Source of the DNA: a virus | Lineage: Duplodnaviria > Caudoviricetes | Direction: 5' to 3' (one strand) | DNA length: 64,000 nucleotides | Virus record (IMG/VR): IMGVR_UViG_3300027838_000002 | Coordinates: 18,980 to 82,979 of that record | In this document: piece after piece, positions 21,848 to 44,441 of the stretch | Numbering within the stretch: position 1 is the stretch's first letter | Layout of the letters: each line of letters begins with the position of its first letter | The notes under the pieces: generated by a model | Databases searched by the model: none | Seen by the model: the letters and a program-made list of their open reading frames with translations, nothing else | What the model was told of the DNA's origin: nothing | Translations under genes and position numbers: made by a program

Positions 21848-21884
21848 CACGCTTCAATCGTGGTACTCGCAGACCATGTGGTTA
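21848..21884 (-). ncRNA. Solo TIGR-like dual-spacer unit 1
   Basis: Minus strand TAACCA-CATGGTCT-GCGAGTACCA-CGATTGAA-GCGTG. Confidence 0.75.
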
Positions 21885-22181
21885 CTCTTCAATCTCCTCC
21901 TTGACCGACAAGTGAATCGTCGATCCGCCGGTCGCGTCAATGTGAAAGCCAGTCTCCTTCAGATTGGCTGAGAGTTGACACCCGACGTGGTACGCGACAT
22001 CGGCTTTCAGGTTGATGCCGTCGCGGGGGTCTCCCTTGCCGCTTGCTGCGGCGAAGATAGCGCCACAGGCTTCCTCGTCGCTCACGTCCTCGGGTACGTT
22101 GAACTCCAGCACCAGCCCGAAGTCGATCTTCAGTTTCCTAGTCTTCGTTGGAAATACGATGCGGCCATGCTGCTCACTCAT
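21882..22181 (-). CDS. Hypothetical protein
   Basis: MSEQHGRIVFP...; its stop TAA forms the start of the solo unit. Confidence 0.6.
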   Translation of the reverse strand: MSEQHGRIVFPTKTRKLKIDFGLVLEFNVPEDVSDEEACGAIFAAASGKGDPRDGINLKADVAYHVGCQLSANLKETGFHIDATGGSTIHLSVKEEIEE

Positions 22182-22392
22182 CTTCAATCTCCTCTTCGTC
22201 GCCAAACATCTTGTCAAAACAAGACCCGCACGTCCCACTGATGAGAACTTCGCGATCATCCGCCGACAGGTACGGCATGGCATCATGAATCAGTGCGCCA
22301 TTATGCCAGTTCGCAAGATCCTCAGCCACCACCGTGATACGCTGTGTTTCTTTGCACTGGACGCAATCAATCTCCATGAGCGTCTTCGGCAT
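22174..22392 (-). CDS. Small Zn-ribbon phage protein
   Basis: CVQC...REVLISGTCGSCFDKMF; GGAGGAG RBS. Confidence 0.7.
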   Translation of the reverse strand: MPKTLMEIDCVQCKETQRITVVAEDLANWHNGALIHDAMPYLSADDREVLISGTCGSCFDKMFGDEEEIEDE

Positions 22393-22405
22393 GTTGCTCT
22401 CCTCC

Positions 22406-22441
22406 AAAAAGAAAAGACGGCCGGGTGTTACCCCGGCCGTC
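22406..22441 (-). terminator. Terminator-like hairpin after solo guide unit 2
   Basis: Same hairpin as at 21809-21846. Confidence 0.7.
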
Positions 22442-22442
22442 T

Positions 22443-22479
22443 CACGCTCGCGGCATGGTACTCACGTATACCGTGGTTA
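22443..22479 (-). ncRNA. Solo TIGR-like dual-spacer unit 2
   Basis: Minus strand TAACCA-CGGTATAC-GTGAGTACCA-TGCCGCGA-GCGTG, directly after the Nop-domain gene. Confidence 0.75.
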
Positions 22480-23763
22480 CTCTTCAGAAGCTTCGTCCTC
22501 GGAGTCTTCGTCATCCACTTCCGGTGCCGGTGCCGGTGCCGGACGCGGAGCGTACAAGTCGCTAAGCGGCTTGCCACCCAGGTCGTCCGCAAGCGGGAAG
22601 TGCGGAATAGGGATGGTATGCGTGTGCGTACCATCGCCGTGCTCGATAATAAACGGCTTCGGAGGATCTTCCCCGTTGAGATCCACGTACATCACGTGAT
22701 GTAGATGCGACATGAAGATCTTCACCGCATAACGGCGAGCACGCGCATGAATATGCGCCGGGGCAAGCATTACAACGCCGCTACCAGGTGCGCCCTCGTT
22801 CGTGTTGAGGTACGGCAACCGCTTGGCCTGGTCCAGTGCCAGCACCTTAAGCATGGTGTCTGCGGTGTAACAGCCTTTCATCCACTTGGTAGCATAGGCG
22901 TCATCACTACGCTTCTGCTTCGTCAGGATGCTTACTGCCTGGTCCGAAAACGCACCAGCCATATTACGCTCGACCTCCAGGGCCTTCCGAGCCTGGAACA
23001 AATGGCCGTAATCGCAGTCTTCGTGATTTTGAAACTTCACGAAGCACTCGCCCATCTTGAACGCACAAAGCGACTTAAGCTCAGCGTTCCACGGACGCGC
23101 AGCCAGGTACTTCTCCATAGCAGCATACTTCTTGTACTTGGCAAAGCCATCAGACCAAACCTGCTGCAGCCGGACAGGATTAACGTTACACAGCGACGAC
23201 AACTCCGTAGCCAGCGGTAGCGAAAGGGTGCGCGCGGTCTTTTGCAGGTCGACCTGTTGCAACATGCTCTTCGCTTCCTCTTTGCCGTGCCAAGTGCGGG
23301 ACGGATCCAAGCCAGCGAAGCGCCACCACTTGCCCACGGTGGGAGTATTCCTGATATCCAGGTGCGCCAACAACCCAGCAGTAATCACCGGACCGATACC
23401 GTGATTTGACAAACACCATCGTCCAGCTGCGTACGAGGCAGCAAACTCACCCAGCGCACGCTTGATGTCCTCTTCTGCACGCTTAATATTCGCCAGTCCC
23501 CAACAGATGACCTCGTTAGGCTCAGCGTGCTTCTCAGTCTGCCGCTGCTGGCCCCGAAAACGGATACGCACGTTCTGCATCTGGTAGTACATGTCTACCA
23601 GGAACCGCGCCTCCTCGGATCCAAGTTCCGTAGCGGCTTTCCGCAAATCGCTGTCAAGCCTTTCAAGCAGCTCCCACTGAGACGCATCCACGGTTTGGGC
23701 TTCAGTATTCTCGCTAGCATTATCATCGTGTTCTGGCACATCAGGAAAATAAATTGAGCTCAT
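22477..23763 (-). CDS. IS110-related Nop-domain protein, TasA-like (no RuvC or HNH domain)
   Basis: Coiled coil LVDMYYQMQNVRIR; WCLSNHGIGPVITAGLLAHLD..TVGKWWRFAGLDP; PWNAELK; HIHARARRYAVKIFMSHL; no N-terminal DEDD RuvC domain; adjoins dual-repeat units. Confidence 0.8.
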   Translation of the reverse strand: MSSIYFPDVPEHDDNASENTEAQTVDASQWELLERLDSDLRKAATELGSEEARFLVDMYYQMQNVRIRFRGQQRQTEKHAEPNEVICWGLANIKRAEEDIKRALGEFAASYAAGRWCLSNHGIGPVITAGLLAHLDIRNTPTVGKWWRFAGLDPSRTWHGKEEAKSMLQQVDLQKTARTLSLPLATELSSLCNVNPVRLQQVWSDGFAKYKKYAAMEKYLAARPWNAELKSLCAFKMGECFVKFQNHEDCDYGHLFQARKALEVERNMAGAFSDQAVSILTKQKRSDDAYATKWMKGCYTADTMLKVLALDQAKRLPYLNTNEGAPGSGVVMLAPAHIHARARRYAVKIFMSHLHHVMYVDLNGEDPPKPFIIEHGDGTHTHTIPIPHFPLADDLGGKPLSDLYAPRPAPAPAPEVDDEDSEDEASEE

Positions 23764-24044
23764 TTTGTGTTCTCTGTTTCGTCATGTTCTTGTTTTGGTA
23801 GGTACTCATTATCGAGGCAACGCTTAAGCGCTACCTCTAATCGTCGGTTCTTACGCAACAACCACTTAACATCGAGAAACATAGTGCGCGAATCCAACTC
23901 AAAAACGGTTGGCGCTGCATACCTCTCGCGTAATTTACTGACGAGAACATCATCAGAAATGTCGTCGTCTGGATAGCTAGGATCAATCACAGCTCTGTCT
24001 CCAACATTGCCATGCGCACAATCGGCACACCGTAATCCAGCCAA
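23760..24044 (-). CDS. Hypothetical protein
   Basis: Fills the gap between the deaminase and Nop genes; start uncertain. Confidence 0.45.
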   Translation of the reverse strand: MAGLRCADCAHGNVGDRAVIDPSYPDDDISDDVLVSKLRERYAAPTVFELDSRTMFLDVKWLLRKNRRLEVALKRCLDNEYLPKQEHDETENTK

Positions 24045-24487
24045 AACGCATCGTCCGAGTTACCCCGGTGACCGCTACGGTTGTCCAGGTACACCAATCG
24101 CTTGATACCGCTTTGCATAATCAGTAGCGCGCAATCCTTGCACGGAATACCACTGATGTACATCGTGCCGCCCCGCCGGGCGTCCACCGACGAAAACATC
24201 AATGCATTCTGCTCACTGTGAATACAACAGTTCGGCTTATCGGTCGAATTGGGTGATAACCCCTCGCGGTAGCACACACCATCATTGCACGCGCCGCGGG
24301 GTTTCCCGTTGAAAGCCGTAGTAACAACCAGCCCTTCCTCCGATACGATTACCGTCCCATACTGTGCGCGCACACACTTGGACATCTCCGCTACTTCAAG
24401 AGCCAGGCGCATATAGCCCCTGTCCTTCTCGGTAGCAATGGGTGCGCGCATCCTATCCCATGCCGGTACGGTCATACCTTCGCTCAT
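23987..24487 (-). CDS. dCMP deaminase family protein
   Basis: SKCVRAQYG, FNG.P.G, CIHSEQNAL, PCKDC. Confidence 0.9.
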   Translation of the reverse strand: MSEGMTVPAWDRMRAPIATEKDRGYMRLALEVAEMSKCVRAQYGTVIVSEEGLVVTTAFNGKPRGACNDGVCYREGLSPNSTDKPNCCIHSEQNALMFSSVDARRGGTMYISGIPCKDCALLIMQSGIKRLVYLDNRSGHRGNSDDAFWLDYGVPIVRMAMLETEL

Positions 24488-24735: not shown

Positions 24736-24736
24736 A

Positions 24737-25641: not shown

Positions 25642-25710
25642 TCGACGATTTCCTGGTTACTTTCGCACCAGGCCTCGGCTGACGTGTCTACAGCGTCATC
25701 GCTTCTTTCG

Positions 25711-25977
25711 TCATCCATCACCCGTATCCTTAGTCCCGGCCTTCCTACGAATCACCCAGTCGATCGTGCTGTCGTCCGTATCCTTAGTCCCGGCCTTCCT
25801 ACGAATCACCTCGATCAGCATCAGTATCAATGCTGTAATCACAGCATCCAACCCAATCGCACGCCCCTCGGTTTCGTCGAAGTTGGTGGCGGTAATCCAC
25901 AACACAAACGAAATGGCGAGCAGTCCTGTCAACCAGTACAAGAACGGCCACAGCTGACTATTCCTCGGGGGAATCAT
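25711..25977 (-). CDS. Small membrane protein with a duplicated C-terminal segment
   Basis: Two hydrophobic helices; VIRRKAGTKDT twice (35-bp duplication at 25722 and 25776). Confidence 0.6.
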   Translation of the reverse strand: MIPPRNSQLWPFLYWLTGLLAISFVLWITATNFDETEGRAIGLDAVITALILMLIEVIRRKAGTKDTDDSTIDWVIRRKAGTKDTGDG

Positions 25978-26021: not shown

Positions 26022-26391
26022 CACTCCCGCCTTTTGGTACTCTCCGTTCGCTTGGTTGCACGCTCCTGTGTTGGTACTCTCCGCCGCCCTGGTTACACGC
26101 TCGACAAGTGGAACTCGCTCAAGCCATGGTTGCACGCAATGAGGTTGGTACTCGCGGTGATGATGGTTGCACGCATACCTTCTGGTACTCGCAGTCATGC
26201 TGGTTGCACGCCAAAACTTTGGTACTCGCAGCTGGATTGGTTGCACGCGTGGTCTTTGGTACTCGCGAACGACTTGGTTGCACTCCCGTGCTATGGTACG
26301 CGCTCTTGAGTTGGTTGCACGCGGTTCAAATGGTACGCACGCCATCGCTGGTTGCACGCTCATAGTGTGGTACTCGCAGCCGTCACGGTTA
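26022..26391 (-). repeat. TIGR-like dual-repeat array 1 (10 units, 37-nt period)
   Basis: Plus strand alternates TGGTACTCGC and TGGTTGCACGC separated by variable 8-mers; the 10-mer starts at 26035+37n up to 26368. Confidence 0.92.
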
Positions 26392-26883
26392 GAAAACCCT
26401 GAAACCTCCGCAGTGCCGTAGAAACTCGATCCACTCCTTCAGGGATTCGTCATCAACGGAGTGCGGTGATCGCACCCCGTCAACGCCCTGCGCCCCGAAA
26501 CGCGCCTGCGCCGACGCGACCAGCGCTGCCTCGGCCAGGAAACCGGTCTCATCCGACGACTTGGGGCGGAGGTCAACAAATTTCCCCTCTCCATCAACGC
26601 GCATCCCGTGATCGACTTCGTGCCCATCGATGTTGTGCTCCATCCACTGGGAGAACCGCATGGCTATCTCGTCGCAGGTTTGCTGATCTTCGGGGCCAGC
26701 TCCGTCGTTGAAGCTCATCTGTAGCAGCATCTCTTCGTCGAGAAAGTCGCTGCACAGCTGCCGCATCAGGTCGTGAATAGGTCGCCAGGACCAGACGTTG
26801 GCCCTGAAATAACACCCAGGTTGATCTTGACCAGCAGCCGCCCACTCGTTGGCGAACCGTCTCCCGTACACATCCATGCCCAT
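26389..26883 (-). CDS. Conserved-type phage hypothetical protein
   Basis: MGMDVYG..YFRANVWSWRPI..EFLRHCGGFRVF; GGAGG RBS. Confidence 0.7.
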   Translation of the reverse strand: MGMDVYGRRFANEWAAAGQDQPGCYFRANVWSWRPIHDLMRQLCSDFLDEEMLLQMSFNDGAGPEDQQTCDEIAMRFSQWMEHNIDGHEVDHGMRVDGEGKFVDLRPKSSDETGFLAEAALVASAQARFGAQGVDGVRSPHSVDDESLKEWIEFLRHCGGFRVF

Positions 26884-26999
26884 TGATATGTTCCTCCGTC
26901 TCGTTTGTTGTTGAATAGCCTGCCACCCACCAACTGGTGGGTTGAGCGCATAAAAATTCCACCCTAACGGAAACTCGCGTGCCAAAAAACGGGTGGTCA

Positions 27000-27500
27000 T
27001 TTGCATGGACTGCCTGGACGCGCTCTCCAAGTGGTTCTGATCTCTGGACTTAAGACATGGCCATGCCTGGACATACCCTGGACGTCCCATGCACCTCCGG
27101 TATAGGGGTTTCTTTGAGCTATAGTGACTGGGAGAGACGAGCCAGAGACGAGCCAGAGACGAGCTCGGGGGAGGTGCGCGGGAGGTGCACGGGAGTTAAC
27201 GACCATAGGGGTTTCTTTGATCTATAGTGACTGGGACGGACGCTGTCCGGCCCATCCTGTCCGACTGTCCGACAACCCGACACATGCGGTGACACAGTTG
27301 TCACTCAACTTGAAAAATGTGCGCGGCATACAAACAGATCGGCCAGATTGACATTGACGGCAGCACAAATCTAGGAGTCGTAGCACATGACGTGGAATTT
27401 TGCTATAAGGTAAGCCTTACCTTATTAACCGTAGGTTGGTGACCGTCCCGGCCTAAAAGGGCCGGTCCGGTAGGAAAATATAATAGGTATCCTACTTGAG
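27000..27500. repeat. Non-coding repeat-rich region (candidate origin or regulatory hub)
   Basis: 32-bp direct repeat at 27102 and 27205; short tandem repeats GAGACGAGCCA, GGGAGGTGC, CTGTCCG, CCTGGAC; inverted repeat ATAAGGTAA/TTACCTTAT. Confidence 0.6.
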
Positions 27501-28413: not shown

Positions 28414-28416
28414 CTG

Positions 28417-30870: not shown

Positions 30871-31866
30871 TTACGCTTTTTTACGGCTGTGAAAACTGCA
30901 AGTCTCATCCAGGATACGTTGTACGGCTTCGGCCCTACTGTATCCGGAACTTGCTTCCTTGCTGTTGGAAGCTTTGATATGCAATCCTTCCGCCGTCAAC
31001 TTTTTCGCAGTAACAGCCTCGACGATACGATCACGTCTGATAAGTCTCCGCGCGGCCATATACCCTTCCAGCCAGCCTGCCGGACGCCGTTCGTTGTACC
31101 GCGTGAACTTGATAAAGCGATGCAGTCCGCCAATCACGTCTTCACGTACCGCATCATCTTCACCCTCCCACATGTCATGGATCATTGAAAGTACGGTAAT
31201 GATGAGCTCAGAGCCGCCGTCCTTGTACAGCCGCTCCAGCCGACTCAGTGCGCGGACATACGGCCACTTACCAGTAACACCGGGCTCCAGCGGGATATCA
31301 AACCCGGCAGCACACACGGCACTGTAAATGTCGACCGCAAACTGATTATCAGCCTTCAGGGCTGAGCGAAAGATTTCAATCTTGGTAAGACGTGTCTTAC
31401 GTGCGTTCAACTGGTGGAACAGGTTTGCCTCGAACTTTGCGCCGGTAGACGCAACGATTTCGACGTTTACCTTTGTCACGCCCAGTCGTAAGGCGGCCTC
31501 GATGCGCTGCTGCCCATCGATAATGTAAAGCCCTCCACTTTGTCGCTTACCTACGACAGGCGTGCTGAAGGCGTCCCAGTTGAAGTAGTCGATGATCTGA
31601 GCAACCTGGCGCTCAACGAGCTTACGCTGGTAGGAGTAATCAACCTGCAAATCAGTGACGGTAATGCACTGGTACCGGCCCTTGTGACTGGGTTGTGCAC
31701 TGACGCTGTTGATGTTTTCTACTTTCAGCTTAGTTGCTGCCCGTTTGTCCAGGCGATGCTCAGCCGGACTGAGCATCGCGTCATCCGTGCGCCGTAGCGC
31801 CCGCACGGCTTTCTTCTCTGGCTGTACCTGCACCCGCTGACGAAGTTTCTGTTTGCGCCGACTCAT
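30871..31866 (-). CDS. ParB/Srx-like N-terminal domain protein (DUF6551/DGQHR-like)
   Basis: LQVDYSYQRKL..V..I..F....YIIDGQQRIEAA..EANLFHQLN. Confidence 0.7.
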   Translation of the reverse strand: MSRRKQKLRQRVQVQPEKKAVRALRRTDDAMLSPAEHRLDKRAATKLKVENINSVSAQPSHKGRYQCITVTDLQVDYSYQRKLVERQVAQIIDYFNWDAFSTPVVGKRQSGGLYIIDGQQRIEAALRLGVTKVNVEIVASTGAKFEANLFHQLNARKTRLTKIEIFRSALKADNQFAVDIYSAVCAAGFDIPLEPGVTGKWPYVRALSRLERLYKDGGSELIITVLSMIHDMWEGEDDAVREDVIGGLHRFIKFTRYNERRPAGWLEGYMAARRLIRRDRIVEAVTAKKLTAEGLHIKASNSKEASSGYSRAEAVQRILDETCSFHSRKKA

Positions 31867-34390: not shown

Positions 34391-34642
34391 TCAATAATCC
34401 TCTTCGATTGTAACAATTTCCCGTACGATGGTCGTCCGACGTCGCTTAGGTTGTTGCGACCTAAGCTGCTGTCGATTTCGCGAGCGTCCCTGCTTCGCAA
34501 GTGGTTCCGACTTCTTACGTGAAAGTGCCTTGAACGGTGTCGTAACAACATCAACCGCCCAACTTGCTAAGAACTCGATTCCGTCTTCCAATCCCTGTAA
34601 ATCTGACGGGCCCTCATTCTTGTAACGGGACAGATCGGACAT
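34391..34642 (-). CDS. Hypothetical protein
   Basis: MSDLSRYK... with GAGGAGG RBS. Confidence 0.55.
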   Translation of the reverse strand: MSDLSRYKNEGPSDLQGLEDGIEFLASWAVDVVTTPFKALSRKKSEPLAKQGRSRNRQQLRSQQPKRRRTTIVREIVTIEEDY

Positions 34643-36515
34643 GGTAACGTCCTCCTCTGCTTCACGGAACGTAGCCGACATCGTAGCATCGTTCCAAAAT
34701 GATGTAACTGGAGCGCAAGATCTCGGTCTACTGGAGCGCGTAGTTGGACTACGCTCCATGGCCGATCTCCGATGTCTACCCTCCATCGTCCCAATTTTGC
34801 CGCTACTGCTTAATCTGAAGGGAAAGCCGTATACTTTAGAGCAGCACTTCCCATTTAAGCAGTTGTTCCGGAACCACCAACCTCGGCGGGTGGTACTCAA
34901 AACGGGACGTCAGGTATCAAAATCAACGAGCCTGGCAGCGCATGGAGTCGTCGTGTCGAATATGCACGACCACTTCTCCACGCTGTACATTACGCCATTG
35001 TACGAGCAGATTCGTCGATTCTCCAACAACTACGTACGACCATTTGTCGATGAAAGTCCGGTGAAAAATTCGTGGCTGGAGGGCGCGGGATCTGAGCAGT
35101 CTGTGCTCCAGCGCAGCTTCAAGAATAGATCCAGAATGATCTTCTCGTTCGCGCTACTAGACGCCGACCGCATACGTGGTATCCAGGCAGACAAGGTAGC
35201 GATTGACGAAGTGCAGGACATGGACCCTGCGCACATCCCAATTATTCATGAAACCATGTCGGCATCTCCGCATGACCTTGCCCAATACACAGGAACCCCG
35301 AAGACATTGGACAACGCTATCGAAGGGCTGTGGCAGCAAAGTAGCCAAGCCGAATGGTTTATGCGCTGCAATAGCTGTAACACGTGGAATATTCCTTCGA
35401 TGGATTACCACGTGGACAAAATGATCGGGCCAGTCCGCGAAGACATCAGCGCCGATAATCCCGCGGTGGTGTGCTACTCTTGCCAAAAATCCCTCCACCC
35501 CAGGCAAGGACGATGGGTGCATCGCTACCCTGACAAGCGGTGGGATTTTGCAGGGTACCATGTGCCTCAGATCATAATGCCGCTTCACTATTCCAATGCC
35601 GACAAATGGTCAACTCTGCTCGGTAAGCGTGACGGCTGGGGCAGCACGTCACCAAATATCTTCTACAACGAAGTACTGGGTGAAAGCTACGATGTTGGCC
35701 AGAAACTGGTCAGTCTATCGGAGCTCAAAAAAGCTGCATCGTTGCCGTGGAAAAACAATCCGGATGAGCCCGATCCGCAGGCACTTAGCTCGGCGAAGCA
35801 GTATGCAAACCTGGTGCTGGCAATTGACTGGGGCGGTGGTGGAATAGAGGGTGTCAGCTTCACTACTATCGCCGTGCTGGGATGGTCAAGTGGGAAGATT
35901 GACTGCCTATGGGGTAAGCGACTACTGACTCCGCATGATCACGTCGGCGAAGCAATGGAGTGCCTCAAGTGGTTCAAGACGTTCGGTTGTCAATACATCG
36001 CTCATGACTACACAGGTGCTGGCACCGTACGTGAGACGATCATGGTGCAACAGGGTTTCCCTATCAGTCGCCTGCTGCCAATATCCTACGTGCGCGCCGC
36101 CACACATGCGCCCATGTATCACGTACCAGCAACAGTGTTACACCCTCGGGATCATTACCGGGTAGACAAGACCCGAACGCTCCTGTACACCACCACGTCT
36201 ATCAAGCTGGGCCATATACGATTCTTCCAGTACGACCACGAAAACGTCGATAATCCTGGCCTACTCCACGACTTCCTGGCCCTGGTGGAAACGAAGACCG
36301 CATCACGGCAAGCCAGTGACATCTACACGATCACCAGGGCTGCCGGTGTATCCGATGACTTCGCGCAGGCTATGAACATCGGATGTGCTTCGCTTTGGCA
36401 CGTCACTCAATCCTGGCCAAAGTTTGCAGGGGCAGCGCCGCTCACATCAGCTCAGGTTGAGGCGGCAACAGACAGGCGAGAGGATGTGATGGGCGGCTAC
36501 GGGGCTATTCCATAA
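34641..36515 (+). CDS. terL: Terminase large subunit (GpA-like)
   Basis: LKTGRQVSKST (Walker A), IDEVQD (Walker B), TGTPKT, CxxC pairs, FYNEVLGESY, AIDWG and DDFAQA nuclease residues; start may lie further downstream. Confidence 0.88.
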   Translation: MVTSSSASRNVADIVASFQNDVTGAQDLGLLERVVGLRSMADLRCLPSIVPILPLLLNLKGKPYTLEQHFPFKQLFRNHQPRRVVLKTGRQVSKSTSLAAHGVVVSNMHDHFSTLYITPLYEQIRRFSNNYVRPFVDESPVKNSWLEGAGSEQSVLQRSFKNRSRMIFSFALLDADRIRGIQADKVAIDEVQDMDPAHIPIIHETMSASPHDLAQYTGTPKTLDNAIEGLWQQSSQAEWFMRCNSCNTWNIPSMDYHVDKMIGPVREDISADNPAVVCYSCQKSLHPRQGRWVHRYPDKRWDFAGYHVPQIIMPLHYSNADKWSTLLGKRDGWGSTSPNIFYNEVLGESYDVGQKLVSLSELKKAASLPWKNNPDEPDPQALSSAKQYANLVLAIDWGGGGIEGVSFTTIAVLGWSSGKIDCLWGKRLLTPHDHVGEAMECLKWFKTFGCQYIAHDYTGAGTVRETIMVQQGFPISRLLPISYVRAATHAPMYHVPATVLHPRDHYRVDKTRTLLYTTTSIKLGHIRFFQYDHENVDNPGLLHDFLALVETKTASRQASDIYTITRAAGVSDDFAQAMNIGCASLWHVTQSWPKFAGAAPLTSAQVEAATDRREDVMGGYGAIP

Positions 36516-36517: not shown

Positions 36518-36739
36518 CACGCGCGGTAGTTGGTACTCGCGAGGAGTTTGGTTACACACCAATATCATGGTACTCACTCAGAACTTGGTTGCACGCAGCT
36601 AGCATGGTACTCGCCTCTGCCGTGGTTGCACGTGCTTCTTTTGGCACTCTCCCCGCACCTGGTTGCACATTCCCCTATTGGTACTCTTCTCGAACCTGGT
36701 TGCACGCACGCAGATTGGTACTCGCTCGTGGTTTGGTTA
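36518..36739 (-). repeat. TIGR-like dual-repeat array 2a (6 units)
   Basis: 10-mer at 36531, 36568, 36605, 36642, 36679, 36716. Confidence 0.9.
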
Positions 36740-36835
36740 CTGCTTCCTGCGCCCGTACCTACAGATGATCAGCGTCGTTATCACGACACAGGCACAGATG
36801 AGCAGGGTCTTCAGGACTTCAGGTGAAACACACAT
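36737..36835 (-). CDS. 32-aa single-TM peptide embedded in the array
   Basis: MCVSPEVLKTLLICACVVITTLIICRYGRRKQ; hydrophobic core and basic tail; absent from the ORF track. Confidence 0.55.
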   Translation of the reverse strand: MCVSPEVLKTLLICACVVITTLIICRYGRRKQ

Positions 36836-36976
36836 CTACTATGGTACTCGCAAGTTTTGTGGTTGCACGCATCGATCGTGGTACTCGCGTCGATGGTGGT
36901 TGCACGCGCTTCTTTTGGTACTCGCGCGACGCCTGGTTGCACGCGATACGCATGGTACTCGCTCGATCAATGGTTA
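36829..36976 (-). repeat. TIGR-like dual-repeat array 2b (4 units)
   Basis: 10-mer at 36842, 36879, 36916, 36953. Confidence 0.9.
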
Positions 36977-37591
36977 TTGACACCATTCGGAATCCCAGAT
37001 CATCTCCACATTCTCACCGTGCAGGATTCCAGTGGGTGAGATGTACGGGCGCCCCAGCCCGATCAGGTCTTCGTACGAGACCTTGAGCCGCTTCTCGGGG
37101 TCGCTGGCTACCACTAGTTCCGAGCAATACAGCGCTTTCACGCCCAGCTCGAACTTGTTGTCGTAGTCCAGGCCCTCAAACGTCAGGCAGGTTTCGACGA
37201 CCTTCTTGACATACTCGCCATCCCAGTCCGTACAGCGCAGGATGACAACCCTGTCTGCCTCGTGGCAGATGTCGTAGAACTCGGACTTCTTGTAGCCGAC
37301 GCGTGTCATTTCGGCAACTTCGAAGCCGCGCTCTGGTGACTTGCTGAGGCACAGCGCAGCGTGAGGCAGTTCCCCCGGGATGATGAAGCTGGTGAGCTTC
37401 CAGTTGTCCTTGGTCAGGAGAATGTCACCTACGCGCAGCAGCTCAAAGCCTTCCCGGTACGTGAAGCCGCGGATGGCGCTGTAGTACGTGTTGAAACGCA
37501 CGTACGGGATCTTGTCGAGGATCCAGTTGTAGAGCCATGTTTCCATGGCCCAGAAGGCAAATCGTGACCAGAGGCTACGTAAGAGTTGCAT
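36974..37591 (-). CDS. Permuted papain-like NlpC/P60 amidase (YiiX/YebB-like)
   Basis: GDILL, HAALC, YD..F....LYCSELV, ISP. Confidence 0.8.
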   Translation of the reverse strand: MQLLRSLWSRFAFWAMETWLYNWILDKIPYVRFNTYYSAIRGFTYREGFELLRVGDILLTKDNWKLTSFIIPGELPHAALCLSKSPERGFEVAEMTRVGYKKSEFYDICHEADRVVILRCTDWDGEYVKKVVETCLTFEGLDYDNKFELGVKALYCSELVVASDPEKRLKVSYEDLIGLGRPYISPTGILHGENVEMIWDSEWCQ

Positions 37592-37596
37592 AGATT

Positions 37597-37855
37597 CACG
37601 CTGCTATTGTGGTACTCGCTGATATCATGGTTGCACGCATTTCTATTGGTGCTCGCCCAGGCACTGGTTGCACGCTTGTTTTTTGGTACTCGCGCGGGTC
37701 CAGGTTGCGCGCCGTCTTCATGGTACTCGCTGCTGGATTGGTTGCACGCTGTGATCGTGGTACACGCGGGTCTGTTGGTTGCACTCTGGGACCGTGGTAC
37801 TCGCGCCGAGTTTGGTTGCACGCAGATATGTTGGTACTCACCAATACTATGGTTA
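37597..37855 (-). repeat. TIGR-like dual-repeat array 3 (7 units)
   Basis: 10-mer at 37610+37n up to 37832. Confidence 0.9.
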
Positions 37856-40762
37856 GAACTCGTCGTCAGGAGGTACTTCGTTGTACCACCCTTCGGCTTC
37901 CGCTACGTCAAAATCACTCTGGGCGTTGTCGTCAGTTTCTTCCGTGGCCTCGTCGTCTGACTCATCGTCTTCCACGACGTCAAAGTTGTCCTCGCGTAGT
38001 CTGTCGTCGGGCATTGGGGCTCCTCCGTAATTTTTTGCTTTATGACGAGAATCGCGATCGCTGAGAATCTCGGTCCACCAGAGCTTGTCCACCCACCAGT
38101 GCTCGGCGTCGTCCCGAATAAGCACCCCTGCGCTGTGCATCTCCTGCGATAGCCGCACCATGTCTAATAACGGTATCTCGGGTACGGTGACAAGACTATT
38201 TATGCGTTTCTTGCTCACCCTGACGTGCTCACCTGATACCGCTATGGCTGGCGCGTGACTCTGTTCGAATTCTTCGTTGATCGTTGTCAGCTTACCTGAC
38301 ACCAATCCGTGGTACACCAGCTCTGCGAAGTAGTCTAGCGGGTCCGGCGCAGAGTCTAACAACGCCGCCGCTTGACGAAATACCGTGTCGTCATTGGTCA
38401 GGTCCCCGAACCATGCTGACATATCCGCGAGCACCGACTCCACGTACGAGCCTGTGTACGTTAAACGAAAGCGGCGGGCCGCCAGGTGCTGTATGTACGC
38501 GGGTAAAATTGGCGCGCCCACACGTTGCAGCGTTCCGCCGACTGAAGGTGCACCATCTACATGGATCAGGTTCCAGCCACCGTTGATCATCAACGCCTGT
38601 GCGTGCTGCGGCAACAGATCAACTATGGCGTTCTTTGCGTCAGGGTGCTGTAGCCAGTCTGCTAGCAGCTTGTTCTTGTACTTGTCACAGCGCAGGTATA
38701 CCGGCCACTGGTGCCGTACAATGGCTGCCGAATTTTTGGCAACAACTCTCTTGAAAGCCCCAAGCGCACTGACATCAGTGGTGATGCAGCCCAGGCTGGT
38801 GGCAGTAGCAGCCCCCAGCGAGGTAGCTGCAGCTCCTAGAAGTACCAACCCCCTGCGATCTTGATGGAGTACCTCTGCAAGCAGATTACTGGTGATGTGT
38901 GCTGCGGTCGCCCAGAATACTGCGGATGATTGACTGGACGCGCCCAGTGTTTTCAGCGTCTCGTGTGGAATATTCCCGGGGGCCTGTAGATCACGTGCCG
39001 GTGTCATTTCAGTCAGGGTATACCAGGCGTCTTGCTCTAAGACGTGTCCGCCAGGGTGTACCTCGAACCGTGGAAACACGAAGCGGTCGTCTACCCACCC
39101 AAACGACTCGATCCCTTTGTTCGATGTTGGTTCGTGGAAACCTTGTGCCAGTCCCAACAGGTGTTGCGACCAACGTGGCTGTATGTTGGGACGACCCATG
39201 CCGTGGCGGGCGAGCAGGTTGCGCAGCCAGGCGCCTGTTTTATTCTCCATAACGCTAGCCAGCTCAGCGAATTCAATAACCTGCTCGTCACGAGTGACGT
39301 TTCCGCGATACTCCGTTACGTTTTCGTCAGGGTAGTAAACTACGTTCTCCAGTCGAATGATCGTGTCGGATAAAATCTCGCCGGAAGCTAGCGTCCAGTG
39401 TCCGTCCTTTTCGAGAACGGTCTTACCGTTTATGGCTATGCTGCGGTGCTTTTCCTTACCCGCGGTCTTTATCTTCTGCAGCTTGTTACATATCGCTTCG
39501 CTGCACTGCTGCATAAACCGCGCCAACTCTACGTCTGACATGTTTAGGTACAGCAGCAGATTCTCACATTCAGCGAGCTCCATCTTTTCCAGCTCGGTTT
39601 CCAGCACGTCTTCCCAGGCCCGCGACTGCCGCACCATCCGCTCCAGCCACTCAACTGGACGACGCCTACTCACGTCGTCAGGAAGGGCACGCAGAGAGTC
39701 ACTCACAGCAATGCGTCCCTTGGCGCACATAGCCTGTTGTATCAGCTCCGGACTTAATTCCGGTGCCCAAATGATGTAGTCGCGGTGGGCTGCATTCTTC
39801 CACACGTGCCTGTTCGAGATACGCCCGTCTATGATTGACCCACATATCGGGAGAGGGGTGTTATTGTCCCGGAGGTGCCGCAGCTGTAGTTTCAACGCTG
39901 TGACCGGGTCGTTCAGTACGAAAGTTGTTGATCCAAACTTCTTGTGTTCGATCGTCAAGGTCTCGTACATAGAGAGCCCTGAATCCCATATCGGGGCCTG
40001 ATCCTTGGTTTCGAACTGGTGCGAAACCACTGGAACACGTTTGAATACAAAGTCGTCCGGAGCCTCGGCATCCCTTCCGATAAACATGAACGCGTGGATC
40101 TTGCCGGGGGCCGTGTAGAACGGGATGACAAGCACGTCGGCCCAATCCTTACCCTTGAATACACGGCCACGCCCAGCGTTGAGCGAGTCGCCTTTTTTGA
40201 GACGGTTTGTGCACATCGTGTGGTGCAGCGCCATGCGTACGTCGTTAGCGTGGCAGCCACCCAGGAACCTCCCGGCACGCTCAAACCAGGTGGACGTCGG
40301 AGTTGCCGCTCGTCCAACTAGTTTCTGGCACAGTTCTACCATCTGTTCGGTGTCCTGCAGCGGAAGGCGTTTTTGCGCGGACTCCCACATATCTTGCAGG
40401 CGCTGACGGTGCCGTATGTGCGCTTCCTCGTATTTTTCCACAGCGATGGGATCCAACACCTTCGAGATTACCGCGATCCCCTGATCACGCAATTTTCGAA
40501 AAACGTTGACGGGGTCTAACCCCCAGGCTTTTCCGGCCAATTCCACCGTATCGCCCGTAAACTGGCACGCGGAGCAGTAGTGCCATTCGCCACCTGATAT
40601 ACTATCCTTGTAGACACGAAGGCCCTGCTGTCGGCATAATGGGCAGCAACACACAGTTGGTAATACCTTTACCGGTATTTCCACGCCCAGTAAGGGCAGA
40701 ACCTGGTCCCAGCTAATATGGTAGTTGAGACTGCAGACTCTCGTGCTTTTGGAGAATGACAT
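37853..40762 (-). CDS. Large protein with N-terminal CHC2-like primase Zn finger
   Basis: CPLC..WHYCSAC..GD.VEL; 969 aa; no clear TOPRIM or Walker motifs. Confidence 0.6.
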   Translation of the reverse strand: MSFSKSTRVCSLNYHISWDQVLPLLGVEIPVKVLPTVCCCPLCRQQGLRVYKDSISGGEWHYCSACQFTGDTVELAGKAWGLDPVNVFRKLRDQGIAVISKVLDPIAVEKYEEAHIRHRQRLQDMWESAQKRLPLQDTEQMVELCQKLVGRAATPTSTWFERAGRFLGGCHANDVRMALHHTMCTNRLKKGDSLNAGRGRVFKGKDWADVLVIPFYTAPGKIHAFMFIGRDAEAPDDFVFKRVPVVSHQFETKDQAPIWDSGLSMYETLTIEHKKFGSTTFVLNDPVTALKLQLRHLRDNNTPLPICGSIIDGRISNRHVWKNAAHRDYIIWAPELSPELIQQAMCAKGRIAVSDSLRALPDDVSRRRPVEWLERMVRQSRAWEDVLETELEKMELAECENLLLYLNMSDVELARFMQQCSEAICNKLQKIKTAGKEKHRSIAINGKTVLEKDGHWTLASGEILSDTIIRLENVVYYPDENVTEYRGNVTRDEQVIEFAELASVMENKTGAWLRNLLARHGMGRPNIQPRWSQHLLGLAQGFHEPTSNKGIESFGWVDDRFVFPRFEVHPGGHVLEQDAWYTLTEMTPARDLQAPGNIPHETLKTLGASSQSSAVFWATAAHITSNLLAEVLHQDRRGLVLLGAAATSLGAATATSLGCITTDVSALGAFKRVVAKNSAAIVRHQWPVYLRCDKYKNKLLADWLQHPDAKNAIVDLLPQHAQALMINGGWNLIHVDGAPSVGGTLQRVGAPILPAYIQHLAARRFRLTYTGSYVESVLADMSAWFGDLTNDDTVFRQAAALLDSAPDPLDYFAELVYHGLVSGKLTTINEEFEQSHAPAIAVSGEHVRVSKKRINSLVTVPEIPLLDMVRLSQEMHSAGVLIRDDAEHWWVDKLWWTEILSDRDSRHKAKNYGGAPMPDDRLREDNFDVVEDDESDDEATEETDDNAQSDFDVAEAEGWYNEVPPDDEF

Positions 40763-42913: not shown

Positions 42914-43169
42914 TGTCGAGACTTACAGGCTCAGGTGCGTCGATCATGACCATAAAATTGTAGCTCCCGTCACCATCCGTCTTACTTCCAAAGAGCTCGC
43001 CAGGACCATTACCCTCTGCATCTCGGCTGGGGTAGATCAGCGTACCATCGTCGAGCACGAACACGGGAACCGAGCCAAACTGCTGCGCGTCCCATCCTTC
43101 CGCCTCTAATTCTTCGTTACTCATCACGCGCGCCTCTACGATACGCCTTCCCACAAACTCAGTTGACAT
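42906..43169 (-). CDS. Conserved-type phage hypothetical protein
   Basis: LDDGTLIYPSRDAEGNGPGELF. Confidence 0.65.
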   Translation of the reverse strand: MSTEFVGRRIVEARVMSNEELEAEGWDAQQFGSVPVFVLDDGTLIYPSRDAEGNGPGELFGSKTDGDGSYNFMVMIDAPEPVSLDNG

Positions 43170-43446
43170 AGTGTCTCTCGAATGAAATGTTGAACGTCGG
43201 TCCGATGTCCCGTGTATTTTTCCATATCCTTATGTTCGGGACACCGTTCAAAAAGTAAATCTCAATGGGAAACGCTTTCCCGTCTGATTCCTGCGGCCCA
43301 TGACTGTAACCATCAAACCCTATTTTCAAAGATGACGTGGACAGGCTGTCAATCAATACAGCTCCCACCGGCGCGCCATCAGGCTTCGTGGAATCAGGCA
43401 TGGGCCGATGTGAACGCTTAATTGTCAATTCTGTCTCGCTGTTCAT
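43159..43446 (-). CDS. Hypothetical protein
   Basis: Colinear small ORF. Confidence 0.5.
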   Translation of the reverse strand: MNSETELTIKRSHRPMPDSTKPDGAPVGAVLIDSLSTSSLKIGFDGYSHGPQESDGKAFPIEIYFLNGVPNIRIWKNTRDIGPTFNISFERHYVN

Positions 43447-43633
43447 CCTTGCAACCTTTTGATTTCAGAAAACAATTAGCGTTGTAGACTATGTCTTTCA
43501 GGAGGTCGTCGATTTCTTCGTGAATCGACTGTTTTCCTTTTAACCAGTCGTGCGCATCGTCCCTTATGGCCTCCAGCATATCCTCAGCTGTCGGCCGGTG
43601 GGACTTCGTCTTCTGAGGGCGATCCTCCGTCAT
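43418..43633 (-). CDS. Hypothetical protein
   Basis: GAGGAG RBS. Confidence 0.5.
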   Translation of the reverse strand: MTEDRPQKTKSHRPTAEDMLEAIRDDAHDWLKGKQSIHEEIDDLLKDIVYNANCFLKSKGCKDEQRDRIDN

Positions 43634-43802
43634 CGTCCCGCTCCTCGATATCGAACTGCGCGCGTAATGCGTCCACTTGTTTGTGCGCTAATGCCGACGG
43701 CCGCCCATCAATCCATGACGACAGATTAACAGCCAACGCAAGTGCACGGTCTCGCTGCTCAAGATAACTCTCTGCAGACAACTTACTCATATGTTGCCTC
43801 AT
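43584..43802 (-). CDS. Hypothetical protein
   Basis: Colinear small ORF. Confidence 0.45.
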   Translation of the reverse strand: MRQHMSKLSAESYLEQRDRALALAVNLSSWIDGRPSALAHKQVDALRAQFDIEERDDDGGSPSEDEVPPADS

Positions 43803-43864
43803 CTTTGACTGTCAAGAACGTCTGCAATTTATACTGACTGGCCCCACGCGCAGCAATAGCCCTG

Positions 43865-44068
43865 CTACTCAGTATCGATGCGGGAAAGCTCAACCAATTC
43901 GTCCGCCGCGTTTATGCGTGCCTGCACTTCACCCCTGTGGATAATCACGCTCTTGGGCGCTTCGACACCAAGACGGACGGCACCTTTATGGATCTCAAGA
44001 ACGGTAATCACAACACGACCGCCGTCGATGACGATCGTTTCTTCCGGTTTCCGTGACATTACTAGCAT
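43865..44068 (-). CDS. csrA: Carbon storage regulator CsrA-like protein, copy 2
   Basis: MLVMSRKPEETIVI..VRLGVEAPKSVIIHRGEV. Confidence 0.92.
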   Translation of the reverse strand: MLVMSRKPEETIVIDGGRVVITVLEIHKGAVRLGVEAPKSVIIHRGEVQARINAADELVELSRIDTE

Positions 44069-44077
44069 TTACGCTCC

Positions 44078-44350
44078 TCAGCCCTCCACTCGTTTTAAGA
44101 TGTCCCACAGTTTGCATATCGCTGCACCCCCTGATCCGGAGTGCGCGAGCGCATCCCATTCGACTGGCGCTTCGTCTCTTGCCTTTCGCAGCAAGTTTAA
44201 GCAATCGCTTGCGAGCAAGGCATCCATCGGTATATTCTTCTGCAATCCCAATGCATCAGCGACACGCGCTATCTCGCTGATGAGCTTGGGTACCGCTCCT
44301 CCGTAAAATTGCTGGCCCATGGCCGTCTGAAAAAACTCTGGTCCCGCCAT
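44078..44350 (-). CDS. Hypothetical protein
   Basis: EFFQTAMGQQFY motif; AGGAG RBS. Confidence 0.6.
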   Translation of the reverse strand: MAGPEFFQTAMGQQFYGGAVPKLISEIARVADALGLQKNIPMDALLASDCLNLLRKARDEAPVEWDALAHSGSGGAAICKLWDILKRVEG

Positions 44351-44370
44351 CTGGTTCTCCTAAACAAATA

Positions 44371-44398
44371 CCCCGACCTCCACGAAGGGAGGCCGGGG
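44371..44398 (-). terminator. Hairpin after solo guide unit 3
   Basis: CCCCGACCTCC/GGAGGCCGGGG stem followed by a U-rich tail on the minus strand. Confidence 0.55.
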
Positions 44399-44404
44399 CG
44401 GCTA

Positions 44405-44441
44405 CACGCAAGCCTGATGGTACTCGTCGGGACTATGATTA
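44405..44441 (-). ncRNA. Solo TIGR-like dual-spacer unit 3
   Basis: Minus strand TAATCA-TAGTCCCG-ACGAGTACCA-TCAGGCTT-GCGTG; spacing identical to array units. Confidence 0.65.

What the first reader, a model, noticed from the sequence alone, without database searches (positions are those of the whole stretch)
21879..44441. Every guide array begins exactly at the TAA stop of the upstream gene
Seen at all seven sites: the first half-repeat is T-AACCA, T-AACCG or T-AATCA, where TAA is the stop of the preceding minus-strand ORF (stops at 21882, 22477, 26389, 36737, 36974, 37853, 44439). Inference: guides are carved from mRNA 3' UTRs, coupling guide supply to expression of different operons. Alternatively units are inserted preferentially at TAA sites, or Tas binding caps and stabilises mRNA 3' ends.
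Basis: partly seen in the sequence, partly recalled or inferred. Interest (0 to 1): 0.85.

Follow-up and report, generated by a model that had tools for sequence, protein, structure and literature searches.

The report
Phage guide-RNA arrays fused to stop codons
In this marine phage, every block of short guide-RNA genes of a recently discovered RNA-guided DNA-targeting system (TIGR-Tas) starts on the stop codon of the protein gene in front of it, so the guides appear to ride on the tails of ordinary messenger RNAs.

Summary
All 7 arrays in the window are dual-repeat TIGR arrays on the minus strand. The unit is [C/T]AACCA-N8-GCGAGTACCA-N8-GCGTG, with a period of 37. Each array starts with T-AAYCR, and that TAA is the in-frame stop of the upstream ORF (134, 428, 233, 32, 205, 969 and 413 aa).

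The full 83-kb record has 9 arrays and 40 units. T occupies unit position 1 in 9 of 9 first units but in only 4 of 31 internal units. In 8 of 9 arrays the TAA closes an ORF. In the ninth, the upstream gene ends in TAG 7 nt earlier.

The 428-aa ORF is the Tas protein, a solo Nop domain of the TasA type. Three single units sit between a stop codon and the three strongest predicted terminators in the region.

Unrelated TIGR phages show the same anchoring with other repeats, for example [TAG]CCG at four gene ends in locus L158. It is therefore a general trait, not a local accident.

My best reading is that these are promoter-less guide cassettes co-transcribed with the upstream genes. This parallels archaeal C/D box sRNA genes that carry the upstream gene's stop codon.

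Why the overlap is exact remains open. The searched TIGR literature does not describe stop-codon overlap or genome-wide dispersal of arrays.

The parts
22477..23763 (-). tas gene: a 428-aa Nop-domain protein of the TasA type (no nuclease domain). Its TAA stop at 22477-22479 is the start of a single guide unit.
   Evidence: PDB sequence matches: 9mty_A (331 aa) at E = 1.2e-8 and TasH at 0.056; with a profile, 2.1e-21 and 6.2e-8. The AlphaFold model has pLDDT 88.5. The top 8 Foldseek hits are TasH-tigRNA complexes, followed by IS110-family recombinases. No Pfam nuclease domain was found. Homologs carry PF02371.
22443..22479 (-). Single TIGR unit that starts on the tas stop codon.
22414..22443 (-). 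Intrinsic-terminator-like hairpin (12 pairs, 9 G-C) plus a T run, directly behind the unit.
21882..22286 (-). 134-aa ORF of unknown function whose TAA starts a single unit.
   Evidence: Coding score +0.31 bits per codon against -0.85 and -0.21 in the shifted frames. No Pfam or PHROG family.
21848..21884 (-). Single TIGR unit. Its flanks are nearly identical to those of the unit at 22443-22479, but its spacers are unrelated.
21818..21845 (-). Terminator-like hairpin (11 pairs, 9 G-C) plus a T run.
26389..27090 (-). 233-aa ORF. Its TAA starts the 10-unit array.
   Evidence: A homolog in locus L067 (37% identity) ends at the same residue with TAA and has no array behind it.
26022..26391 (-). TIGR array of 10 units.
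   Evidence: The next likely start codon is at 25977, with a Shine-Dalgarno-like GGAG upstream.
37853..40762 (-). 969-aa ORF, divergent from the terminase large-subunit gene and conserved in related phages. Its TAA starts the 7-unit array.
   Evidence: tblastn finds homologs in about 60 terminase-anchored loci.
37597..37855 (-). TIGR array of 7 units. It ends 5 nt before the ATG of the next gene.
   Evidence: An RNA-library contig lies on 37340-37703.
36974..37591 (-). 205-aa Peptidase_C92-like ORF flanked by arrays on both sides. Its TAA starts the 4-unit array.
   Evidence: Pfam PF05708, E = 3.9e-12.
36829..36976 (-). TIGR array of 4 units.
   Evidence: An RNA-library contig on 36931-37209 bridges the stop codon by 45 nt into the array.
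36737..36835 (-). 32-codon ORF (a hydrophobic stretch followed by a basic tail). Its ATG lies inside the last unit of the array before it, and its TAA starts the 6-unit array. Whether it is a real gene is uncertain.
   Evidence: Weak coding score of +0.10 bits per codon over 32 codons.
36518..36739 (-). TIGR array of 6 units, convergent with the terminase large-subunit gene (34641-36515, + strand).
44439..45680 (-). 413-aa ORF (weak DUF3150 match). Its TAA starts a single unit.
44405..44441 (-). Single TIGR unit (T-AATCA...).
44370..44399 (-). Terminator-like hairpin (12 pairs, 9 G-C) plus a T run.

Best explanation
The window belongs to a marine phage that carries a TasA-type TIGR-Tas system. 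Its guide units are not gathered in one array beside tas. They are spread over seven cassettes (nine in the full record), and each cassette is fused to the 3' end of a protein gene on the same strand.

Anatomy (shown). Each cassette is a whole number of 36-nt guide units (AACCA, spacer A, GCGAGTACCA, spacer B, GCGTG) joined by one linker base. In internal units the linker is C. In every first unit it is T, which together with the AA of the half-edge gives UAA. That UAA ends the upstream ORF.

Transcription (inferred). The cassettes have no promoters of their own. They are transcribed either as the 3' UTR of the upstream gene (single units, each closed by a strong terminator) or as an intercistronic stretch (multi-unit arrays).

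Maturation (inferred from published TIGR work). Tas dimers bind the units. Full internal edge repeats are cut. The outer flanks of the first and last units, which have only half-edges, are either trimmed by host nucleases up to the protein-protected RNA or stay attached to the mRNA.

Parallel. This arrangement is the TIGR counterpart of archaeal C/D box sRNA genes, a quarter of which overlap the 3' end of an ORF and carry its stop codon.

Spread (inferred). Within this genome the cassettes appear to have spread by copy-and-paste of a module consisting of the last codons, the TAA and a unit, with or without a terminator.
For: Anatomy of the units and arrays. Statistics of the T and of the in-frame stops.

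Tas identity.

No dedicated promoter:
- There is no gap between stop codon and array.
- No column in the 100 nt upstream of the 9 array starts exceeds the control information content.
- The sigma-70-like hits on the minus strand lie at 35025, 34416, 34414, 27505, 26019 and 20626. None is within about 1 kb upstream of an array start.

Terminators: in window 20500-47000, the three strongest minus-strand terminator-like hairpins are exactly those 1-3 nt behind the three single units.

RNA: X19 record 21 (279 nt, no differing letters) lies on 36931-37209. X20 record 30 (364 nt, 1 differing letter) lies on 37340-37703. Each crosses a gene/array junction, and the two runs come from two studies.

Native C-terminus kept: the 233-aa protein and its L067 homolog end at the same residue.

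Generality in other TIGR systems:
- Tas loci at 32-42% identity show the stop codon overlapping or abutting the first half-edge. L083 and L085 have T-AGCC(A); L087 has TGA inside the edge repeat. L105 and L122 have [TAA]CCA; L113 and L155 have [TAG]CC(A); L118 and L135 have [TAA]GCCA; L096 has the overlap at a non-tas ORF.
- L158 has [TAG]CCG or [TAG]TCG at the stops of frames of 106, 458 (tas), 90 and 97 codons, and [TGA]GCCG at a 67-codon frame. That is 5 of the 10 unit clusters listed for L158.
- Folded offsets place 20 of 27 arrays in the overlap classes.

Copy-and-paste:
- 4 of 36 junction pairs share at least 8 of the 12 nt upstream of TAA, against 0.6% of control pairs.
- The modules at 21884 and 22479 share their flanks, terminator and ribosome-binding site, but only 2 of 8 bases in each spacer.

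Published background:
- Arrays are expressed from a promoter placed before tas (legend found).
- Archaeal C/D box sRNA genes carry upstream stop codons and mostly lack their own promoters (PMC7994747, section 9).
Against: - No raw-read RNA data were available. The RNA runs were held only as assembled contigs, which cannot show strand, ends or abundance, and the tool warns that DNA may be present in those libraries.
- Promoters of an unknown host or phage type inside the upstream ORFs cannot be excluded by a sigma-70 consensus scan.
- Published minimal arrays were processed only if they had full edge repeats, and blocking pre-tigRNA processing impaired TasH DNA cleavage (PMC13421893 passages). 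First and single units with half-edges may therefore not become free, active guides.
- The catalytic Tyr289 of SpTasH aligns to Phe371 here, and all 10 close orthologs have Phe at that position. His296 aligns to the invariant His380.
- One of the 9 arrays (record position 9240) keeps TAACCA although that TAA is not the gene's stop.
- The 32-aa ORF may not be a gene.
- 7 of 27 arrays in other systems do not fit the overlap classes. A further 27 of the 54 array starts examined had no long upstream frame ending nearby.
Confidence: 0.6

Rival explanations
1. Translation-coupled control. Because the first guide unit begins inside the stop codon, cutting or binding by Tas at the unit boundary would remove or mask the UAA. 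That would give non-stop or stalled mRNAs and so feed back on the upstream gene, including tas itself. Conversely, terminating ribosomes would sweep Tas off the first unit. On this reading the overlap is a regulatory device rather than a matter of packing.
For: - The same register recurs in 9 of 9 arrays here and in independent systems that use a different stop codon to match a different half-edge: TAA with AACCA, TAG with AGCCG or AGCCA. This argues for selection on the stop being at that position.
- tas carries such a unit at its own stop, in this window and in L158.
- The literature has floated a link between tigRNA maturation and Tas translation for units inside tas (bioRxiv 10.64898/2026.09.09.750476, section 5).
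Against: - There are no data on cleavage at half-edges.
- Published work says full edge repeats are needed for processing.
- In other systems the register varies: the stop lies before the half-edge, directly behind it, or 7-10 nt upstream of the first full repeat block. A single cleavage-removes-stop mechanism is therefore not universal.
- RNA-library contigs cross the junction uncut, though this is only a weak point.
Confidence: 0.15
2. History only. A module of the last few codons, the TAA and a unit (sometimes with terminator and ribosome-binding site) was duplicated by recombination onto the ends of other genes. The overlap is inherited from one founder junction and has no function of its own.
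For: - Junction families exist: GAAGAG-TAACCAC twice; (A/G)TCAA-TAA and CAG-TAA with tails of the form RR(N/K)Q*; GTTC-TAA three times. 4 of 36 junction pairs share at least 8 of 12 upstream nt, against 0.6% in controls.
- The orphan TAACCA at record position 9240 sits 7 nt behind a TAG stop. It is preceded by 'LRRNQ', which resembles the tail 'RRNQ' of the 307-aa ORF at record position 16462.
- Two modules are near-identical apart from their spacers.
- The arrays at 26391 and at record position 9240 share diverged units.
Against: - Descent from one junction cannot explain the same overlap in phages whose repeats and stop codons differ.
- The T is not the base found in internal units, yet it is kept in 9 of 9 first units.
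- The native C-terminus of the 233-aa protein is preserved to the last residue.
Confidence: 0.18
3. The arrays have their own promoters hidden in the 3' ends of the upstream ORFs, and the adjacency to stop codons reflects only the tight packing of a phage genome.
For: - The genes here are packed with overlaps or gaps of a few bases.
- The host's promoter type is unknown.
Against: - There is no conserved column in the 100 nt upstream of the array starts.
- There is no sigma-70-like hit near any array start, and the number of hits found is below the expectation from shuffles.
- Packing alone does not predict one exact register in 9 of 9 arrays, nor the substitution of T.
Confidence: 0.06

Closest known systems
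Dual-repeat TIGR-Tas systems with TasA (Faure et al. 2025, PMC12045711; Xu et al. 2026 preprint, 10.64898/2026.09.09.750476)
   Same: - The associated protein is a Nop-domain Tas protein.
[quoted passage not shown]
- Both repeats end in CCA.
[quoted passage not shown]
- Terminators follow array ends.
- The system is carried by a phage.
   Different: - Only one single unit touches tas. The other six cassettes in the window lie 0.6 to 22 kb away from tas, behind unrelated genes.
- 3 of 7 cassettes in the window (4 of 9 in the record) are single units, whereas the paper describes mostly 5-15 units per array.
- The period is 37, not 36.
- Every cassette starts on a stop codon. The main texts I read do not state this: 'stop codon' occurs 0 times in PMC12045711, 0 times in PMC13421893, and once in the preprint, in a figure legend about positions relative to tas.
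Archaeal C/D box sRNA genes that overlap ORF ends (Tripp et al. 2017, as summarised in PMC7994747, section 9)
   Same: - The guide RNAs are bound by Nop-family proteins.
- Most lack their own promoters and are cut out of longer transcripts.
- 25% overlap the 3' end of an ORF and carry its stop codon. In about half of these cases the stop lies in the 5'-terminal box C.
- Maturation depends on the internal box motifs, not on the flanking sequence.
   Different: - Those RNAs guide RNA methylation together with fibrillarin and L7Ae, in archaeal cells.
- Their stop codon is usually the UGA of the box itself.
- They are single genes or small clusters, not phage arrays.
- Here the stop codon is made by changing the linker base in front of the half-edge, and the effector is a DNA-targeting Tas protein.
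- I did not read Tripp et al. 2017 itself.
CRISPR arrays and phage mini-arrays
   Same: Both are tandem repeat-spacer guide genes processed from a precursor transcript, and both can be carried by phages.
   Different: - CRISPR arrays have one repeat type of 25-36 nt and one spacer per unit.
- They have a leader with its own promoter.
- No Cas proteins are involved here.
- This window has two alternating 10-11-nt repeats and two 8-nt spacers per unit, with no leader.

Membership tests
TIGR-Tas (dual-repeat type) | An associated protein with a Nop domain (Tas) | tested here: met
   The 428-aa ORF at 22477-23763 matches PDB 9mty_A at E = 1.2e-8 and TasH at 0.056. With a profile the values are 2.1e-21 and 6.2e-8. 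The top 8 Foldseek hits for the model are TasH-tigRNA complexes with probability 1.00. A direct scan of the record with Pfam PF01798 found no match.
TIGR-Tas (dual-repeat type) | Two distinct alternating repeats of 8-12 nt, separated by spacers of about 9 nt, in units of about 36 nt | tested here: met
   40 units have an 11-nt edge repeat (GCGTG-C-AACCA), a 10-nt loop repeat (GCGAGTACCA) and two 8-nt spacers, with a period of 37.
TIGR-Tas (dual-repeat type) | The motifs at the start and end of the edge and loop repeats match each other (box D at the start, box C 'CCA' at the end) | tested here: met
   Both repeats end in ACCA and begin GCG(T/A)G, as seen in the information-content profile of the 40 units. 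The rule is taken from PMC12045711, section 8. No covariation test across systems was done.
TIGR-Tas (dual-repeat type) | [quoted passage not shown] | tested here: met
   All 9 arrays start with (T)AAYCR and end with G(C/A/T)GT(G/C). Strong terminator-like hairpins follow 3 of the 7 window arrays, namely the three single units.
TIGR-Tas (dual-repeat type) | Arrays lie directly upstream or downstream of tas | tested here: not met
   Only the single unit at 22443-22479 abuts tas. The other six cassettes in the window are 0.6-22 kb from tas, behind other genes. This is a difference in layout, not in parts.
TIGR-Tas (dual-repeat type) | Units are processed into tigRNAs of about 36 nt that are bound by Tas and guide it to DNA through both spacers | not testable with these tools
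   Only assembled contigs of RNA libraries were available. No target with 0 or 1 mismatch exists in the phage's own 83-kb record. There were 8 hits with 2 mismatches, against 3.3 in shuffled-spacer controls.
TasA subtype (solo Nop, no nuclease) | No N-terminal HNH or RuvC domain | tested here: met
   No Pfam family was found for the protein. In the model, residues 1-26 are disordered and the helical Nop fold starts at about residue 27. The sequence match to 9mty_A begins at chain residue 123 (profile search) or 147 (single sequence), which is behind its N-terminal part.
C/D box sRNA-like gene layout (stop codon of the upstream ORF inside the guide gene, no own promoter) | The upstream gene's stop codon lies within the 5' end of the guide unit | tested here: met
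   This holds for 7 of 7 cassettes in the window and 8 of 9 in the record. The definition comes from PMC7994747, section 9.
C/D box sRNA-like gene layout (stop codon of the upstream ORF inside the guide gene, no own promoter) | No independent promoter; the guide is matured from a longer transcript | tested here: inconclusive
   There is no conserved upstream motif and no sigma-70-like site near the array starts. RNA-library contigs bridge two gene/array junctions. There is no end mapping.
CRISPR array | A single repeat of 25-36 nt with spacers of similar length | tested here: not met
   The arrays have two alternating repeats of 10-11 nt and 8-nt spacers.

The most novel reading that the evidence does not exclude
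TIGR units fused to stop codons may be cis-acting elements through which Tas reads and controls the fate of many phage mRNAs. Tas would bind the first unit in competition with the terminating ribosome. By cutting at U|AACCA it would strip the stop codon, or by staying bound it would cap the new 3' end. The same RNA-guided DNA-targeting protein would then double as a genome-wide post-transcriptional regulator, and the single units in 3' UTRs would be regulatory sites rather than, or in addition to, free guides.
Probability: 0.18. Interest if true: 0.85.

Novelty: new variant of a known kind. Interest (0 to 1): 0.62.

Why it matters
The biogenesis of tigRNAs and the origin and spread of TIGR arrays are stated open questions (PMC12045711, Discussion). 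This phage bears on them in four ways.

1. It shows that guide units can leave the tas locus and settle as single units or arrays behind unrelated genes.
2. It shows that they do so in one exact register with the stop codon, and that the stop codon type follows the first bases of the half-edge in unrelated systems.
3. It shows that junction modules are copied while spacers are replaced completely.
4. It links TIGR systems to their structural relatives, the archaeal C/D box sRNAs, at the level of gene layout.

Practical consequences follow. Array finders that look only around tas will miss most guides of such phages. A stop codon followed by a half-edge is a usable search signature. Natural constructs of the form 'gene, stop, guide, terminator' suggest compact ways to express guides from mRNA tails.

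Tried and rejected
Close relatives for a locus-by-locus comparison could not be obtained.
- The GenBank phage collection has no match to Tas, to the 969-aa protein, or to a second Tas homolog.
- IMG/VR has no exact match to the repeat pattern.
- Single-protein scans of IMG/VR and of metagenome contigs for Tas found nothing.
- The alignment of close orthologs gave only L081 (75% identity), which breaks off inside tas.
- Tas orthologs at 77-92% identity exist and all end in ...SEDEASEE, but their DNA could not be fetched.

Terminase-anchored relatives (80 loci at 50-68% identity) have no TIGR arrays near the terminase gene. The closest, L001, has ordinary genes where the window has arrays. These loci therefore show neither presence nor absence at orthologous stop codons.

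Divergent-strain contigs (run X18) show joints inside the arrays. One, at 36557>36659, skips 101 nt and has 27 other nt in between, a net loss of 74 nt, which equals two units. Differences close to contig ends are not listed, so conservation of the junctions in that strain could not be judged.

Self-targeting by the tandem-spacer rule is rejected: no target with 0 or 1 mismatch was found in the record.

Rfam gave no family at gathering score in 21000-45500.

The idea that ORFs were extended into decayed units is rejected. No unit-like sequence scores upstream of the stops, and the 233-aa protein keeps its native end.

The idea of insertion between the T and the AA of an existing TAA is rejected: only 2 of 9 arrays are followed by AA.

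The automatic offset measure missed strongly truncated first blocks. I therefore folded offsets by half a period. This folding is my own device, and some of the loci are near-duplicates (L139/L142/L153; L118/L135).

(motif listing in four loci) was too noisy to use, apart from the L158 leads, which were redone. My coordinates for the 307-aa ORF were wrong, and that row is not used.

Full report
**What is there**

The window is bases 18980-82979 of an 82,979-base virus record. The phage is found in many seawater and marine metagenomes.

On the minus strand, which carries most genes, there are seven blocks of a 37-nt unit: [C/T]AACCA-N8-GCGAGTACCA-N8-GCGTG. This is the anatomy of a dual-repeat TIGR array as described by Faure et al. 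[quoted passage not shown]

The associated protein is the 428-aa ORF at 22477-23763.
- It matches the chain 9mty_A (331 aa) and TasH in the PDB by sequence.
- Its model (pLDDT 88.5) finds eight TasH-tigRNA complexes as its best structural matches, followed by IS110-family recombinases.
- It has no nuclease domain, so it is of the TasA type.

**Checking the observation**

All seven claimed sites are correct to the base. The T of each TAA sits where internal units have the linker base C, and the AA are the first two bases of the half-edge AACCA. The unit counts are 1, 1, 10, 6, 4, 7 and 1.

Scanning the whole record on both strands gave 40 units in 9 arrays and nothing outside them. The two arrays outside the window also begin with TAACCA.

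The statistics are:
- T is at position 1 in 9 of 9 first units and in 4 of 31 internal units (p = 2.6e-6).
- The TAA closes a frame of at least 100 codons in 7 of 9 arrays, against 5.6% of all 675 TAA triplets on that strand (p = 6e-8).

Two weak points remain. The first is the 32-codon ORF between two arrays. Its start codon lies inside the last unit of the preceding array, and its coding score is only weakly positive. The second is the array at record position 9240, outside the window. There the gene ends in TAG 7 nt before the TAACCA. The claim therefore holds for 7 of 7 arrays in the window and 8 of 9 in the record.

**Surroundings**

The upstream genes are unrelated to each other: tas, a Peptidase_C92-like protein, a 969-aa protein conserved next to the terminase gene in related phages, and several proteins of unknown function. 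Neighbouring genes include a dCMP deaminase, an HNH endonuclease, a ParB-like protein, an RNase H-like protein and an AAA ATPase.

The three single units in the window are each followed, 1-3 nt later, by a hairpin of 11-12 pairs and a T run. These are the three strongest terminator-like sites on that strand in window 20500-47000.

The multi-unit arrays are intercistronic or close a gene block:
- The 7-unit array ends 5 nt before the next ATG.
- The 4-unit array overlaps the next ATG.
- The 10-unit array is followed 44 nt later by a start codon with a Shine-Dalgarno-like motif.
- The 6-unit array ends a block of minus-strand genes that converges on the terminase gene.

**Are the arrays co-transcribed with the upstream genes?**

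- There is no room for a promoter between the stop codon and the first unit.
- No column in the 100 nt upstream of the nine starts is conserved above control.
- No sigma-70-like site lies near any start.
- In two RNA libraries from two studies, one assembled contig each crosses a junction. One runs from the 205-aa gene 45 nt into the array behind it. The other runs from the array in front of that gene into the gene.

These are contigs, not reads, and DNA carry-over is possible, so they are only weak support. Published expression constructs also drive arrays from a promoter placed in front of tas (legend found).

**Is this a local accident?**

No. I fetched 98 loci that encode Tas relatives at 32-75% identity and looked for arrays in them.

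- L083 and L085: T-AGCC(A).
- L105 and L122: [TAA]CCA.
- L113 and L155: [TAG]CC(A).
- L118, L123 and L135: [TAA]GCCA.
- L096: a 96-codon ORF that is not tas.
- L087: the edge repeat itself holds the TGA.
- L157, L159, L164, and L139/L142/L153: the half-edge forms the last codons and the stop follows directly.

Counts from the automatic survey:
- 54 non-redundant array starts were examined.
- 27 of these had an upstream frame of at least 80 codons ending nearby.
- After folding offsets by half a period, 20 of those 27 fell into the two overlap classes (13 before the half-edge, 7 directly behind it). Seven did not.
- Some loci are near-duplicates, and the folding is my own device.

The best replicate is L158, whose Tas is 34% identical and whose edge repeat is GAGC-G-AGCCG. 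Of the 10 unit clusters listed for it, 5 start on a stop codon. [TAG]CCG or [TAG]TCG closes frames of 106, 458 (tas), 90 and 97 codons, and [TGA]GCCG closes a 67-codon frame.

So the stop codon type follows the half-edge: TAA where it begins with AA, and TAG where it begins with AG. Dispersed arrays behind non-tas genes also occur in other phages.

**How the cassettes spread within this genome**

The 12 nt upstream of the TAA are similar in 4 of 36 junction pairs, against 0.6% of control pairs. Three junctions share tails of the form RR(N/K)Q*. Two share GAAGAG-TAACCAC. Three share GTTC-TAA.

The modules at 21884 and 22479 are almost identical in the last codons, both repeats, the terminator and the ribosome-binding site. 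Yet they share only 2 of 8 bases in each spacer.

The orphan TAACCA at record position 9240 is preceded by a frame reading LRRNQ*, which resembles the tail of another array-bearing gene.

The arrays at 26391 and at record position 9240 share diverged units.

This points to copy-and-paste of junction modules, with complete turnover of spacers. At the same time, the 233-aa protein ends at exactly the same residue as its array-free homolog in L067. The cassettes therefore sit on native stops rather than truncating or extending the proteins.

**Mechanism**

Shown:
- the anatomy of the units and arrays;
- the exact register with the stop codons;
- the terminators behind the single units;
- the lack of a conserved upstream motif;
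- the recurrence of the overlap in distant systems.

Inferred:
- The cassettes are transcribed as mRNA tails or intercistronic stretches.
- Tas dimers bind each unit.
- Internal full edge repeats are cut.
- The half-edged outer ends are trimmed up to the protected RNA or remain attached to the mRNA.

The closest precedent for this layout is archaeal C/D box sRNA genes. Most lack their own promoters. 25% overlap the 3' end of an ORF and carry its stop codon, in about half of those cases within box C. Their maturation depends on the internal box motifs rather than on the flanks (PMC7994747, section 9).

Points against easy maturation of first and single units:
- Faure et al. found that minimal arrays need full edge repeats to be processed.
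- Blocked processing impaired TasH activity.
- The catalytic Tyr289 of SpTasH corresponds to Phe371 in this Tas and in all 10 close orthologs, although His296 corresponds to the invariant His380.

The reason for the exact overlap is therefore open. I rank the possibilities as follows:
1. Hitch-hiking with maximal packing, on the C/D-box model.
2. Inherited junction modules with no function of their own.
3. Control coupled to translation termination.
4. Hidden promoters inside the upstream ORFs.

**Novelty**

TIGR-Tas systems, truncated edge repeats, terminators, and arrays next to or partly inside tas are all published. I did not find the following in the searched library or in the main texts I read:
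- stop-codon overlap as a rule;
- covariation of the stop codon type with the half-edge;
- dispersal of cassettes behind unrelated genes across a phage genome;
- single units placed between a stop codon and a terminator.

I rate this a new variant of a known kind. It is of clear interest to people working on tigRNA biogenesis and array evolution.

Noticed in passing
window 21810-21890 and 22405-22485 (minus strand): Two modules of 'last codons GAA GAG, TAA, one unit, terminator, GGAGGAGAG ribosome-binding site' are almost identical in everything except the two spacers, which share only 2 of 8 bases each. This suggests that spacers are replaced or diversified while repeats and flanks are kept.
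   Followed up: partly
window 26022-26391 and record positions 8908-9240 (outside the window): The two largest arrays share several diverged units. For example, GGGCGGCG/ACACAGGA pairs with GGGCAGCG/ACACAGGA, and TGGCTTGA/CTTGTCGA pairs with GCGTCTGA/CTTGTTGA, the latter pair sharing the rare loop variant GAGTTCCA. This looks like a segmental duplication of an array. In addition, the units at window 26243 and 37744 share 7 of 8 bases of spacer A.
   Followed up: no
window 22477-23763, Tas residues 371 and 380: The residue aligned to the catalytic Tyr289 of SpTasH is Phe in this Tas and in all 10 close orthologs. The chain 9mty_A has Trp at that position. The residue aligned to His296 is invariant. 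Whether this clade cuts its own precursor is therefore open.
   Followed up: partly
window 30871-31866 (minus strand): A ParB-like protein (phrog_1033; DUF6551) is encoded about 7 kb from tas. Faure et al. noted that TasA loci are sometimes in operons with ParB-like genes.
   Followed up: no
window 37586-37600 and 36829-36840: The genes behind two arrays start 5 nt after, or inside, the last unit and have no visible Shine-Dalgarno sequence. If the array were cut at its last half-edge, the downstream mRNA would be almost leaderless.
   Followed up: no
window 36518-36739 and 37597-37855, in run X18: A divergent strain shows joints inside the arrays. One skips 101 nt with 27 other nt in between, a net loss of 74 nt or two units. 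Unit number and spacers therefore vary between strains.
   Followed up: partly
L158:1757-10400: An unrelated phage contig has at least five single units or arrays that start on the TAG or TGA stops of different genes, including tas, within 9 kb. It is a second example of dispersed, stop-anchored TIGR cassettes.
   Followed up: partly
window 57478-57676: A stretch with 36-nt periodicity (autocorrelation 0.64) showed up in the periodicity scan. Because 36 is a multiple of three, it may be a coding repeat. It was not inspected.
   Followed up: no
record positions 16351-16462 (outside the window): Behind the single unit at 16462 lie two degenerate units, still in register, that use a variant loop (AGTAACA-like). 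The same variant loop occurs twice in the array at record position 9240.
   Followed up: no
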